A stretch of DNA of 64,000 nt from Leptogorgia sarmentosa (taxonomy: Eukaryota): the NCBI GenBank assembly GCA_964658305.1, contig OZ210885.1:13082001-13146000 (forward strand), read 5' to 3'. Positions 19,738 to 57,445 of the stretch are shown in pieces (the first letter of the stretch is position 1; the number at the start of each line of letters is the position of its first letter). The notes below the pieces were generated by a model. That model searched no databases. It saw nothing but the letters and a program-made list of their open reading frames with translations, and was not told the origin of the DNA. Made by a program: the position numbers and the translations under genes.

Positions 19738-20335
19738 ATGGCAAGCGGTGCCAGTTACACAACAGATGAAGAATCCAGATGGGTTGTGATTGGTATTTGC
19801 CTTACCAAAGTTGTCACTCCCACCTTGAGGAAAGTTGTCGATGCAAAATTGAAGAGCTGGTATCAAGACTTATGTAAACCACCTGATGAAATTGACAAAC
19901 AAGTTTTCGGAAAGCAAATTAAAACGCTGCCACCATCAACGTTGTCTTTGCAATATAAAAACATCAACGGTAATAATGTACACAAGTATCCCCGTGCATA
20001 TGACTACGCGGTGAAAGATGCTCTGTCTTTGGCAAAGTTGTTCGTTAAACCCTTCATGGCAAAGTTTACAGGTTTTGACGATACAATGGATCTTTCTGCT
20101 TTACTGACTATCATGTGTGAAGCAGATCCATTCATAACATCTGGTGCCTCATGTTACGCAAATAATGTAAGGTCAAACGTGAGAAACGAATGGGCTCATT
20201 GCAACTTTCCCAAATGGACCAATGCTTTGTTCAATGACGCGATTCAACACCTGCAATGGTTGGTGAAAAATATCAATTTAACAACTGCGGCTGAAAAAGA
20301 AGTGTGTGATGATCTTGAAGATTGGAAAAACAAAG
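19738..20335 (+). CDS. Exon 1: DZIP3-like HEPN domain
   Basis: Helical domain of about 200 aa with VRSNVRNEWAHCN (Rx4H, 20182..20199). Donor AAAG|gtaatg, phase 1. Confidence 0.8.
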
Positions 20336-56300: not shown

Positions 56301-57445
56301 TTAAGAATAAAATATTTCGTGCATTCTTGTTCACTTGTTCCACTTTATTTTGTCGTTTCTTTGACGATTGGTATATAATAAAGCACTTATTGACTGGGCC
56401 CTCGGGAAACCAGTGTGTTTTGTGGACCCTCGACCATCGATGTTTCCCTCGGCTTCGCCTCGGGAAACATCGACGGTCTCGGGTCCACAAAACACACTGT
56501 TTCCCTTGGGCCCAGTCAATAAGTGTTAAATGTAAACAATTGTGAAAAGCGAGTTTAGTAGCGGTCTACGTGAACAATTTCTGAGACAGCAACTTAAATA
56601 ACGTGACCTCTGGACCCTACCTGCTCCACACGCATCCCTAAATTTACGCCCGCACCTGCTACTAATTTCTATTAAAAGCATAAAAGCGACTGTTGAAGAG
56701 GCGGCTCGGTACTCGAGATTAAATTGCCAGTTGCGACAAATTCCTTTGGGTAACATACCTGCAACATAAATCATTATGAAGCTAAAATTGCGTCACAAAT
56801 ATTGGCAAAACAATTCTTCTGAATAGCGTAGCCTAGCCGTTAGATAACACGGCTAACAATCCAAGATCAGCTCGCAAGTGATGGCAAAAATTGATTCGAG
56901 TTAAATGGCGGTTCGATAAAATGGCTGTAAATCTAATTTAAAACACGTCTCAGGTTATACCAAAAATGGCCTCGGGAAAGAAGAACACTGGGTATGCAAT
57001 GCGATCAAAATCTTTCCTTCGTAAATATAAAACATGGCTATCAATCCAAAATTGATCGCAAAAATTGCCTCGCGTAACATTGCCTTAACAGATTTAAAAA
57101 TTTTAAATCACATTTTTAGGCCGTGGTTCTTCGGTAATTGAGAACTTCATAACTGGAAAGGTTCTCCACAGATTTCCAATTCAAAATGCCGAACGTATCA
57201 GAGCGTTGGCGTTAGCGCCTGAGGGAGAATTTCTTTTGTCATGCTCGGATGATGACAAGGCGCTGAAACTGTGGAACCTACCAAATGGAGAGTGTGTTGA
57301 AGAGTTTCATTTCGACCGGTATGTTTTAGCCATCGCATGTGGCTCAAATGGAATGGTTTGTGTTGGCCTGGCAGGAGGTCGGGTCTGCTTCCTTCGTCTT
57401 AATAAGTTATCCTCGCATTCAAAAGAACTCCAACCTAAAGGTTGA
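19738..57445 (+). CDS. Whole gene model: HEPN(DZIP3-like) - coiled coil - NB-ARC - WHD/helical - WD40 repeats; Apaf-1-like STAND receptor, ~1710 aa, 16 coding exons
   Basis: Exons 19738-20335, 21536-21639, 21810-21978, 22554-22885, 23812-24451, 24895-25317, 27176-27421, 30075-30293, 33675-33896, 35712-35952, 36414-36646, 37894-38003, 46118-46526, 51299-51903, 54812-55067, 57120-57445. All introns are GT..AG with matching phases, and the sum is 5133 nt = 1711 codons ending in TGA. Confidence 0.85.
21536..21639 (+). CDS. Exon 2: linker/helix (VSNVFVDGRYSKLIKESLSELRRCIENWHLETDTK)
   Basis: Not in the ORF track. Acceptor ttgatag|tttca and donor ACGAAG|gtttga. Phase 1 in and phase 0 out bridges exons 1 and 3 exactly. 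Confidence 0.65.
21810..21978 (+). CDS. Exon 3: coiled-coil-like linker
   Basis: Acceptor tctgcag|ATGACC, donor AAAG|gtatta. Heptad-like LQLRELRCNVEEKLGALEEKI. Confidence 0.7.
22554..22885 (+). CDS. Exon 4: NB-ARC N-terminal part with P-loop
   Basis: VGIRGMGGLGKTVLAQAV (Walker A at 22688..22711) and VVWLDIG. Acceptor cttag|ttccg, donor ACG|gtatgt. Confidence 0.92.
23812..24451 (+). CDS. Exon 5: NB-ARC Walker B, sensor I, GLPL, winged helix
   Basis: CLVVVDDVW (Walker B), LLITTRD (sensor I), CRGLPLAL (GxP), LAIFPEDTDIP. Acceptor ttttag|ATTGAT, donor AAAG|gtacag. Confidence 0.92.
24895..25317 (+). CDS. Exon 6: MHD-like motif and Apaf-1 helical domain
   Basis: YRVHDLLLDF (MHD/LHD equivalent). 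DYYFKYLPYHI..LLFDLHWLKQK..VISDF resembles the APAF1 C-terminal helical domain. GT/AG sites, phase 1-1. Confidence 0.9.
26188..26333 (+). repeat. Two-unit 76-bp tandem repeat in intron 6
   Basis: ggcgaggagatagccaacgtgtt..gccagcgagcctt..gtaatcgag at 26188 and 26264. Confidence 0.85.
27176..27421 (+). CDS. Exon 7: end of helical domain, first WD40 blade
   Basis: Acceptor ttccag|GCAGA joins QLLG to RLL. GLRNGSITIFDLDTG. Donor ACAG|gtaggt. Confidence 0.85.
30075..30293 (+). CDS. Exon 8: WD40
   Basis: LQGHSRVVSCLAVSQSGAILASGSWDQSTILW. GT/AG sites. Confidence 0.9.
31041..31944. mobile_element. hAT-type non-autonomous element with nested MITE
   Basis: TIRs caagggcgtcaatcc / ggattgacgcccttg. Perfect 8-bp TSD ctagctac. 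Confidence 0.88.
31640..31908. mobile_element. cataggcgtac-family MITE nested in 31041..31944
   Basis: Ends ataggcgtacg / cgtacgcttaag. Internal sequence is nearly identical to 16297-16517 (aatgtcaacaatcctccagtcgttcacctga..ggcgccaaccatggtggcgcc). Confidence 0.8.
33675..33896 (+). CDS. Exon 9: WD40
   Basis: DETIKLWKADT..LVGHTDWVTCVVA. GT/AG sites. Confidence 0.88.
35712..35952 (+). CDS. Exon 10: WD40
   Basis: LVSGSHDGIIKIWDL and IISGDDEGSVRLW. Donor ATCAG|gtgggt, phase 2. Confidence 0.9.
36414..36646 (+). CDS. Exon 11: WD40
   Basis: ALTASLDKSIRVWN and WVSASSDGTFKVWN. GT/AG sites. Confidence 0.9.
37894..38003 (+). CDS. Exon 12: WD40 fragment (GDLKWAKHVAVSADDQYVVSLSNNGNISGFSTKSSIK)
   Basis: Not in the ORF track. 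Acceptor caatag|gtgac, donor ATAAAG|gtataa. Joins in frame to VWNL of the next exon, giving SIKVWNL. Confidence 0.8.
38914..39070. mobile_element. Penelope-like terminal-repeat remnants in inverted arrangement
   Basis: 38914-38984 (-) and 39002-39070 (+) are inverted homologs: cccgacgagggcc..ctttgct.gaaacgt..aatc..taggta.tgagtag. Related copies at about 3820-3870, 17115-17175 and 39640-39700. Confidence 0.45.
40229..41473 (+). pseudogene. Bel/Pao gag (DUF1759-like) region, frameshifted within the zinc-knuckle cluster
   Basis: KLPDLQISKFQG..DWVRFWSLF and CVYCENDDHRSVEC. The next knuckles (CFNC..HRAREC, CYKCQRKHHTSIC) continue in another frame. Confidence 0.85.
41430..45492 (+). pseudogene. 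Bel/Pao pol: aspartic protease, RT, RNase H, integrase; integrase interrupted
   Basis: ALLDTGS, RVVYDAS, GDIKQAFLQI, YVDD, HGFADAS, TIPRLEL, NPADICSRG, VDYAGP, ISDNG and WWGGMFERM. Frameshift at about 44590, stop at 45002-45004, further shifts at about 45010 and 45195. Confidence 0.9.
46118..46526 (+). CDS. Exon 13: WD40
   Basis: VRFSSDGLQVIIGCKDNHVFIWDW and LSPDGKRVLFGSLD. GT/AG sites. Confidence 0.88.
47583..48225. mobile_element. Degenerate inverted-repeat element (MITE-like)
   Basis: 47583-47685 (..ctcaaaacatt..gatgcatcgtgggaacgcatggcctg) is the reverse complement of about 48140-48225 (caggccatgcatactcacgatgcat..aatgttttgag). Confidence 0.5.
49503..51203 (-). mobile_element. Crypton-like tyrosine-recombinase element in intron 13
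   Basis: Carries a YR pseudogene. A hairpin of about 160 bp spans 49503-49661. A perfect 15-bp inverted repeat pairs 49656-49670 with 51189-51203, and TAATAA is a direct repeat at both ends. Confidence 0.75.
49844..50965 (-). pseudogene. Crypton-type tyrosine recombinase (KCTD1/ZMYM-related DUF3504-like), disrupted
   Basis: SRFASL..KDSESTKKAT, YQKSSLSAIRFGLSRHF, FFCRRARQNLRQL (catalytic R), ELTKNH, CPVASFEKYLSHL and IMSVSGHRSESSIKNY (catalytic Y). Frameshifts lie near 50150-50220, and the YTNHSxR segment is missing between QQAN and FEARH. Confidence 0.8.
51299..51903 (+). CDS. Exon 14: WD40
   Basis: GHPDDSIVTAIDITSDGKFALSGS, ALLGCDDGELLW and GGSVKLWN. GT/AG sites. Confidence 0.88.
54812..55067 (+). 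CDS. Exon 15: divergent WD40/beta-propeller
   Basis: Acceptor ttgacag|GCTCCG, donor TTAG|gtaatt. Phase 0 in and phase 1 out fits the neighbours. LRVNNSGSHVAILG. Confidence 0.65.
56083..56530. mobile_element. Non-autonomous hairpin element with the same end architecture as the Crypton
   Basis: Perfect 23-bp inverted repeat 56083-56105 / 56359-56381, followed by a ~140-bp hairpin 56384-56525 with centre ctcggcttcgcctcgg. Confidence 0.7.
57120..57445 (+). CDS. Exon 16 (last): WD40 to stop
   Basis: IRALALAPEGEFLLSCSDDDKALKLWN and VCVGLAGGRVCFLRL (typical propeller-closing end), then TGA. Confidence 0.88.

What the first reader, a model, noticed from the sequence alone, without database searches (positions are those of the whole stretch)
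19738..57445. Apaf-1-chassis STAND receptor with a HEPN RNase effector instead of a CARD: candidate 'RNase apoptosome' animal immune system
Seen: 16 exons splice into one open ~1710-aa protein. It has a complete NB-ARC (GMGGLGKT, VVVDDVW, ITTRD, GLPLAL, VHDL), an Apaf-1-like helical domain and a WD40 array. The N-terminal ~200 aa have no death-fold character and carry RNEWAH, an Rx4H motif that is also kept (RNPWAH) in the diverged paralog. Established: HEPN RNases (RNase L/Ire1 KEN, Cas13, Csm6, PrrC/RloC) need two domains brought together to form an active site. STAND ATPases oligomerise on ligand binding, and bacterial Avs STANDs couple this to nuclease effectors. DZIP3-like HEPN fusions to NACHT-type NTPases are known in invertebrates, so the domain family itself is not new. 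Inference: WD40 ligand sensing drives oligomerisation and proximity activation of RNA cleavage, giving caspase-independent cell death or antiviral shut-off. I know of no functional characterisation of the HEPN + NB-ARC + WD40 architecture.
Basis: partly seen in the sequence, partly recalled or inferred. Interest (0 to 1): 0.9.

Follow-up and report, generated by a model that had tools for sequence, protein, structure and literature searches.

The report
Soft-coral Apaf-1-like receptor with RNase head
This expressed 16-exon soft-coral-type gene joins a likely RNA-cutting HEPN domain to an Apaf-1-like ATP switch and WD40 sensor, likely by swapping out an older death-signalling head; it would cut RNA when triggered, a new combination within a large, already catalogued but untested class of invertebrate immune receptors.

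Summary
The gene is real. 16 GT-AG exons splice to an open 1708-aa protein, colinear (58%) with an independent single-ORF homologue. Contigs of one public run carry the exact HEPN-exon-to-NB-ARC splice joints. The head is probably a HEPN domain of the CXorf38/Swt1-like type, not the DZIP3 type. It has no Pfam hit alone, but homologues hit DUF4559 and HEPN_Swt1, and R-x4-H is kept in 121 of 130 distant relatives. The fold search is compatible but not decisive. The chassis is not canonical CARD-Apaf-1. Its nearest relatives carry DED or DEATH heads, and the HEPN plus coiled coil (exons 1-3) likely came from an octocoral HEPN-STAND-TPR family, with the join at the exon 3/4 boundary. The idea is not new: HEPN-STAND receptors with an RNase L-like role were proposed in 2013, and one coral table lists 112 HEPN-NACHT-WD40 rows. 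HEPN-NB-ARC-WD40 is absent from that table (0 of 180 WD40 rows), and my searches found no functional test of any member. RNase activity and oligomer-driven activation are inferred. The scan earlier noted protist HEPN-NB-ARC genes on other DNA, not this gene. Verdict: new variant of a known kind.

The parts
19738..20335 (+). Coding exon 1: HEPN-like domain (aa 1-199), CXorf38/Swt1-like, with R149-N150-x3-H154
   Evidence: joint to exon 2 in run X4
21536..21639 (+). Exon 2: start of the helical, probably coiled-coil linker (aa 200-234)
21810..21978 (+). Exon 3: linker (aa 235-291); last exon of the module shared with the HEPN-STAND-TPR family
22554..22885 (+). Exon 4: start of the Apaf-1-like chassis (VPYGL) and NB-ARC Walker A GMGGLGKT
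23812..24451 (+). Exon 5: Walker B VVVDDVW, sensor-1 ITTRD, GLPLAL, start of the winged helix
   Evidence: NB-ARC E 3e-18, Dark_WHD E 2e-4
24895..25317 (+). Exon 6: VHDL (MHD-type motif, label recalled) and APAF1_C helical domain
   Evidence: APAF1_C E 8e-11
27176..27421 (+). Exon 7: end of the helical domain and start of the WD40 region
30075..30293 (+). Exon 8: WD40
33675..33896 (+). Exon 9: WD40
35718..35952 (+). Exon 10: WD40
36414..36646 (+). Exon 11: WD40
37894..38003 (+). Exon 12: WD40 region
46118..46526 (+). Exon 13: WD40
51299..51903 (+). Exon 14: WD40
54812..55067 (+). Exon 15: degenerate WD40 region
   Evidence: match to P0001, E 2e-9
57120..57445 (+). Exon 16: last WD40 and stop codon
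16808..18689 (+). 100%-identical tandem copy of 18689-20571, holding a second copy of the HEPN exon (17857-18454); assembly artefact or very recent duplication
   Evidence: no joint supporting the duplication in runs X3 or X4
12870..12890 (+). 3' end of a probable non-coding 5' exon, followed by a GTGAGT donor; its start is not defined
   Evidence: X4 loose end before 19726 matches 18 bases here exactly, then differs; partial support
434..1027 (-). HEPN exon of a head-to-head paralog (RNPWAH); groups with P0147, a HEPN-NB-ARC-WD40 protein; the rest lies outside the window

Best explanation
This is an expressed Apaf-1-like receptor (NB-ARC switch, helical domain, WD40 array) whose head is likely a HEPN ribonuclease; it would sit switched off until the WD40 array binds a trigger, and would then oligomerise, pair its HEPN domains and cut RNA. 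SHOWN: the gene, the splicing, intact switch motifs, the conserved R-N-x3-H, and purifying selection on the head. INFERRED FROM TREES: an octocoral ancestor put exons 1-3 (HEPN plus coiled coil, from the expanded HEPN-STAND-TPR family) in place of the DED or DEATH head of a cnidarian Apaf-1-like paralog, at the intron 3 position. INFERRED FROM KNOWN FAMILIES: ADP/ATP exchange on ligand binding, ring assembly, and a composite two-domain HEPN active site cutting host RNA (translation shut-off or cell death without a caspase adaptor) or invader RNA. The ligand and the substrate are unknown.
Confidence: 0.5

Rival explanations
1. The head is an active HEPN RNase, but it is not switched on by an apoptosome-like wheel. 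The roughly 90-aa coiled-coil linker would pre-form dimers held in an inactive pose, or the protein would co-assemble with paralogs (other HEPN receptors or DED-headed relatives), and nucleotide exchange would only release inhibition.
For: The linker (aa 200-290) travelled with the head from the TPR-type family and is repeat-expanded in P0147. The same head also works on non-ring partners such as Roc-COR and kinase-KEN. An autoinhibited state is modelled for human CXorf38 (bioRxiv 10.64898/2026.05.28.728550, passages).
Against: The whole Apaf-1-like switch and helical domain are intact and conserved, and 21 of 25 scanned long homologues pair the head with a STAND-type NTPase region.
Confidence: 0.22
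2. The head has the HEPN fold but is not catalytic. It would bind RNA or a nucleotide, act as a homotypic adaptor in place of the DED, or serve as an integrated decoy for pathogen anti-RNase proteins.
For: It occupies the slot of pure adaptors (DED, DEATH) in sister proteins. Some homologues carry two HEPN-type domains (P0013), which could allow HEPN-HEPN recruitment. PMC8662601 leaves sensor versus RNase open. The best HEPN structural match, Swt1, is classed inactive (PMC3710099).
Against: R, N and H of the catalytic consensus are kept at 93-96% down to 26-40% identity, whereas inactive HEPN families lose the motif (PMC3710099 passages).
Confidence: 0.2
3. The head is not a HEPN domain (chance motif in a helical bundle), or the gene is a decaying, non-functional chimera.
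For: There is no direct Pfam, Foldseek or PDB-sequence hit for the window's head. A perfect duplicate of exon 1 lies upstream; splicing both copies would stop right after the first head. Two mobile elements sit in introns.
Against: Transitive Pfam hits reach E 4e-9, Atlas hits reach 0.97, the 1708-codon frame is open, spliced contigs exist, dN/dS is 0.22, and the architecture is conserved in P0001 and P0147.
Confidence: 0.06

Closest known systems
CXorf38 (DUF4559) / Swt1-like HEPN proteins fused to NACHT, DEATH or ankyrin in cnidarians and cephalochordates (PMC3710099, passages)
   Same: Same HEPN branch by transitive Pfam hits, same N-terminal effector position on a STAND NTPase, and the same proposed RNase L-like defence or apoptosis role.
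   Different: Here the NTPase is an Apaf-1-like NB-ARC with APAF1_C and WD40. That combination is not in the passages read; the paper's architecture supplement was not seen.
Coral DZIP3-like HEPN-NACHT-WD40 and HEPN-NB-ARC-TPR receptors (PMC10236652 Additional file 17; PMC8260672; pearl oyster PMC9646362)
   Same: Tripartite HEPN / STAND / repeat layout; 112 of 180 WD40 rows in the five-coral table are HEPN-NACHT-WD40 (hand count).
   Different: Different HEPN subfamily (no HEPN_DZIP3 hit for this domain; hhalign probability 0.2) and different NTPase clade. All 5 NB-ARC-WD40 rows in that table have DEATH heads, none HEPN.
Cnidarian Apaf-1-like paralogs with DED or DEATH heads (Nematostella P0154, Dendronephthya P0146/P0148, Xenia P0150-P0152; PMC2246300, PMC10959488)
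   Same: Same chassis: 63% identity over NB-ARC plus helical domain to P0146/P0148, and a colinear WD40 region.
   Different: The head is a putative enzyme plus coiled coil instead of a death-fold adaptor, so no caspase-recruiting domain is present.
Mammalian Apaf-1 apoptosome
   Same: NB-ARC, winged helix, APAF1_C and WD40 in the same order; E 3.5e-58 for P0001 against 3sfz.
   Different: No CARD; a longer WD40 region (about 900 aa); no evidence for cytochrome c sensing or caspase-9 recruitment; orthology not tested (no canonical Apaf-1 in my tree).
Bacterial STAND/NACHT anti-phage receptors with enzymatic N-terminal effectors (bioRxiv 10.1101/2022.07.19.500537; PMC13581612; passages)
   Same: Sensor-switch-enzyme logic; HEPN is listed among NACHT effectors; Apaf-1-like WD40 sensors occur, and TIR-like heads on related chassis appeared (TIR label from inspection).
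   Different: Eukaryotic, intron-rich and built by recent shuffling within octocorals; no PADLOC hit for the head.

Membership tests
HEPN superfamily | R-(N/D/H)-x3-5-H motif at the end of a helix, conserved | tested here: met
   R149-N150-x3-H154 follows helix 137-153; kept in 121 of 130 distant homologues
HEPN superfamily | All-helical HEPN fold matching solved HEPN domains | tested here: inconclusive
HEPN superfamily | Sequence-profile membership | tested here: met
   Met through homologues only: DUF4559 best E 3.9e-9 and HEPN_Swt1 best E 9.7e-7; Atlas 0.94-0.97; the window protein alone has no hit
HEPN superfamily | Dimerisation forming a composite active site | not testable with these tools
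   Needs biochemistry or a solved structure
HEPN superfamily | Metal-independent RNase activity | not testable with these tools
   Needs an assay
DZIP3/hRUL138-like HEPN (PF18738) | Match to the HEPN_DZIP3 profile | tested here: not met
   Not among the 25 most frequent families in A1; 1 of 76 in A2, location not shown and probably a second domain as in P0013; hhalign 0.2% against the DZIP3 domain of P0013
CXorf38 (DUF4559) / Swt1-like HEPN | Match to the DUF4559 or HEPN_Swt1 profiles | tested here: met
   26 of 76 and 20 of 76 homologues at E<=0.01; an outlying branch, since most hits are weak
CXorf38 (DUF4559) / Swt1-like HEPN | Zn ribbon inserted into the HEPN (PMC3710099 Table 1) | tested here: not met
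   No conserved Cys/His cluster among the top conserved columns in distant homologues; the insert at aa 46-94 is loops and short helices. So it is related to, not a strict member of, the vertebrate CXorf38 type
NB-ARC (AP-ATPase) STAND | NB-ARC domain with Walker A, Walker B, sensor-1, GLPL and MHD-type motifs | tested here: met
   Pfam NB-ARC above cut-off; motifs intact
NB-ARC (AP-ATPase) STAND | Ligand-induced nucleotide exchange and oligomerisation | not testable with these tools
   Inferred from the family only
Apaf-1 proper (CARD-NB-ARC-WD40) | N-terminal CARD | tested here: not met
   No death-fold Pfam hit; no death-fold chain in the top 50 structural matches
Apaf-1 proper (CARD-NB-ARC-WD40) | APAF1_C helical domain plus C-terminal WD40 array | tested here: met
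   APAF1_C E 8e-11 and WD40 hits in exons 8-11, 13, 14 and 16
Apaf-1 proper (CARD-NB-ARC-WD40) | Orthology to vertebrate Apaf-1 and cytochrome c binding | not tested
   No canonical Apaf-1 sequence was in the tree; nearest relatives are DED/DEATH-headed paralogs

The most novel reading that the evidence does not exclude
An octocoral 'RNase apoptosome'. An Apaf-1-like wheel was rewired by one exon-block swap from caspase-adaptor signalling to direct RNA destruction, giving an animal pattern-recognition receptor that executes cell death or antiviral shut-off by itself, as bacterial Avs/NACHT effectors do. The same unannotated HEPN branch arms hundreds of invertebrate STAND, Roc and kinase receptors.
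Probability: 0.4. Interest if true: 0.72.

Novelty: new variant of a known kind. Interest (0 to 1): 0.44.

Why it matters
Invertebrate genomes hold hundreds of HEPN-headed STAND receptors, and my searches found no test of whether any of them cuts RNA. This one sits on the best-understood animal STAND chassis, with known activating positions and structures, and it has natural DED-headed sister proteins 63% identical in the switch region. That makes it a convenient test case for whether animal NLR-type receptors can be self-contained RNases. It also records a recent, exon-bounded swap of an adaptor head for a putative enzyme head. The HEPN branch (539 representatives at 50% identity, E<=0.001) is mostly invisible to Pfam, so counts of such receptors are probably too low.

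Tried and rejected
(1) Homodimer prediction of the head: no answer, score 0.00, alignment not used; no evidence either way. (2) Foldseek against the PDB with both models: no match at E<=0.001. Profile searches of PDB sequences: nothing meaningful. (3) DZIP3-type assignment rejected. (4) 'Instead of a CARD' rejected in favour of DED/DEATH. (5) PADLOC: no hit for the head. (6) No run is on record as RNA. X4 is read as RNA-like only because it carries spliced joints and lacks cover in most intron bins. (7) Exon-1 tandem duplication: no 'goes back' joint in X3 or X4. Contigs show presence, not absence, and come from other samples, so artefact versus recent duplication is unresolved. (8) No whole genome is held, so paralogs in this genome could not be counted. 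(9) The phrase search of the coral table failed on column breaks; all 180 WD40 rows were read instead. That table covers stony corals only and relies on InterProScan, which would miss this HEPN branch. (10) The supplement held for PMC3710099 had no relevant text; its architecture file was not seen and may list NB-ARC/WD40 fusions. (11) The full-length spliced protein was not folded. (12) The alternative acceptor 6 bases upstream of exon 10 is in frame; the P0001 alignment favours 35718. (13) The scan's own index holds no look-alike of this exon.
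Full report
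OBSERVATION. Using tblastn of the best homologue and splice signals, I built a 16-exon model. All 15 introns are GT-AG, the CDS is 5127 bases, and the protein is 1708 aa with no internal stop. P0001, a 1709-aa single ORF on a 5604-base contig, aligns over the whole length at 58%. Four public runs hold parts of the region, none on record as RNA. Contigs of X4 skip exactly introns 1-4, each GT..AG, whereas X3 does not. X4 loose ends equal the starts or ends of the next exons at joints 7-8, 9-10 and 11-12. Thus 7 of 15 joints, including the whole path from the HEPN exon to Walker B, have read support from one sample. No single contig spans the gene. The closest named homologues are from Dendronephthya, Paramuricea and Xenia, so the source is probably an octocoral (inference).

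THE CHASSIS. Exons 4-6 give NB-ARC, a weak Dark_WHD hit and APAF1_C; exons 8-11, 13, 14 and 16 give WD40 hits. P0001 matches Apaf-1 structures at E 3.5e-58 over residues 342-722. A search with that region returned 120 proteins among 7985 candidates scored. Apart from the query, 11 were far closer than the rest. Their heads are HEPN (P0147), DED (P0146, P0148, P0149 and Nematostella P0154) or DEATH (Xenia P0151 by Pfam; P0150 and P0152 by likeness to it); three lack a head. In a 30-row tree of the switch region the window protein, P0001 and P0147 form one clade (100/99) nested among the DED/DEATH-headed octocoral proteins (midpoint root, no canonical Apaf-1 included, no clade test). DED-headed, CARD-less Apaf-1-like paralogs in Nematostella are described in PMC2246300 and PMC10959488 (passages). 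So the head replaced a DED or DEATH domain, not a CARD.

ORIGIN. The head and the linker (aa 1-290, exons 1-3) align with octocoral HEPN-STAND-TPR/beta-helix proteins at 45-49%. Clear similarity to DED-headed chassis begins at KVP(Y/F)GL, aa 290-291, which is the exon 3/4 boundary. In a quick 29-row tree the WD40-type heads nest in the octocoral TPR-type family (family support 100; their own group only 84; labels taken from Pfam lists). The simplest reading is one exon-block swap followed by duplication. The head-to-head paralog at 434-1027 groups with P0147 (99) and shows dN/dS 0.22 against the plus-strand exon. The same head is a roving module: of 25 long homologues scanned (of 32 over 600 aa), 21 carry a STAND-type NTPase region, 2 Roc-COR, 1 kinase-KEN and 1 RRM; none carries WD40. 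Named examples come from Mytilus, Branchiostoma, Actinia and Xenia.

MECHANISM. The most likely reading (0.5) is an autoinhibited monomer in which WD40 ligand binding triggers nucleotide exchange and oligomerisation, the coiled-coil-tethered HEPN domains pair into a composite R-x4-H site, and RNA is cut. The anatomy is shown; every dynamic step is inferred from Apaf-1 and STAND biology (recalled) and from the dimer requirement of HEPN RNases (passage). The rivals are an active RNase controlled as a pre-formed or mixed dimer (0.22), a non-catalytic binder, adaptor or decoy (0.2), and not HEPN or non-functional (0.06).

PRIOR WORK. PMC3710099 (passages) reports CXorf38-family HEPN fused to NACHT and DEATH in cnidarians and cephalochordates and proposes RNase L-like or antiviral RNA degradation. 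PMC8260672, PMC9646362, PMC8662601 and PMC8195603, all read as passages, report abundant N-terminal HEPN on invertebrate NACHT or other immune proteins and call for functional tests. In PMC10236652 Additional file 17 (part 1 and all 180 WD40 rows; hand count), 112 rows are HEPN-NACHT-WD40, 5 are DEATH-NB-ARC-WD40 and 0 are HEPN-NB-ARC-WD40; HEPN-NB-ARC-TPR rows also occur. Bacterial parallels are in bioRxiv 10.1101/2022.07.19.500537 and PMC13581612 (passages). Eight searches of the held library found no report of this exact architecture and no functional test of an animal HEPN-STAND protein. Subscription journals and unseen supplements may hold one.

VERDICT. Observation confirmed; interpretation partly supported. 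This is a new module combination, with a traceable origin, inside a large known and untested class. Novelty: new variant of a known kind. Interest 0.44.

Noticed in passing
window 39909-45776 (+), intron 12: BEL/Pao LTR retrotransposon with 193-base LTRs 99% identical and a TATA target duplication; gag (DUF1759), protease, RT, Peptidase_A17 and integrase lie in ORFs over several frames. A recent insertion.
   Followed up: partly
window about 49503-51150 (-), intron 13: ORF 50201-51106 with a DUF3504 hit (E 2e-6), flanked by palindromic repeats; probably a Crypton-like tyrosine-recombinase element (label recalled).
   Followed up: no
window 16808-20571: Perfect 1881-base tandem duplication that doubles the HEPN exon. 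Including both copies in one transcript would stop right after the first HEPN domain, giving a head-only product if the duplication is real.
   Followed up: partly
window 4523-5513 versus 12850-13770: Inverted repeat (81%) holding matching putative non-coding 5' exons of the two head-to-head paralogs (donors near 5467 minus and 12890 plus), pointing to an old inverted gene duplication.
   Followed up: partly
window 60305-63874: Cluster of 8 predicted tRNA genes (Glu, Cys, Val, Val, Asn, His, Glu, Leu) about 3 kb downstream of the gene. No link to the putative RNase is shown.
   Followed up: no
P0369 (Xenia), P0294 (Actinia), P0314: The same unannotated HEPN branch sits in front of an Ire1/RNase L-like kinase-KEN protein, and behind CAP-Gly-Roc-COR proteins.
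   Followed up: no
P0002-P0024 family: Large octocoral family HEPN - coiled coil - NB-ARC-like - TPR - right-handed beta-helix - MYND finger, annotated as uncharacterised; likely donor of the head.
   Followed up: partly
P0147 linker: The linker between HEPN and NB-ARC is lengthened by seven-residue tandem repeats, consistent with a length-variable coiled coil.
   Followed up: no
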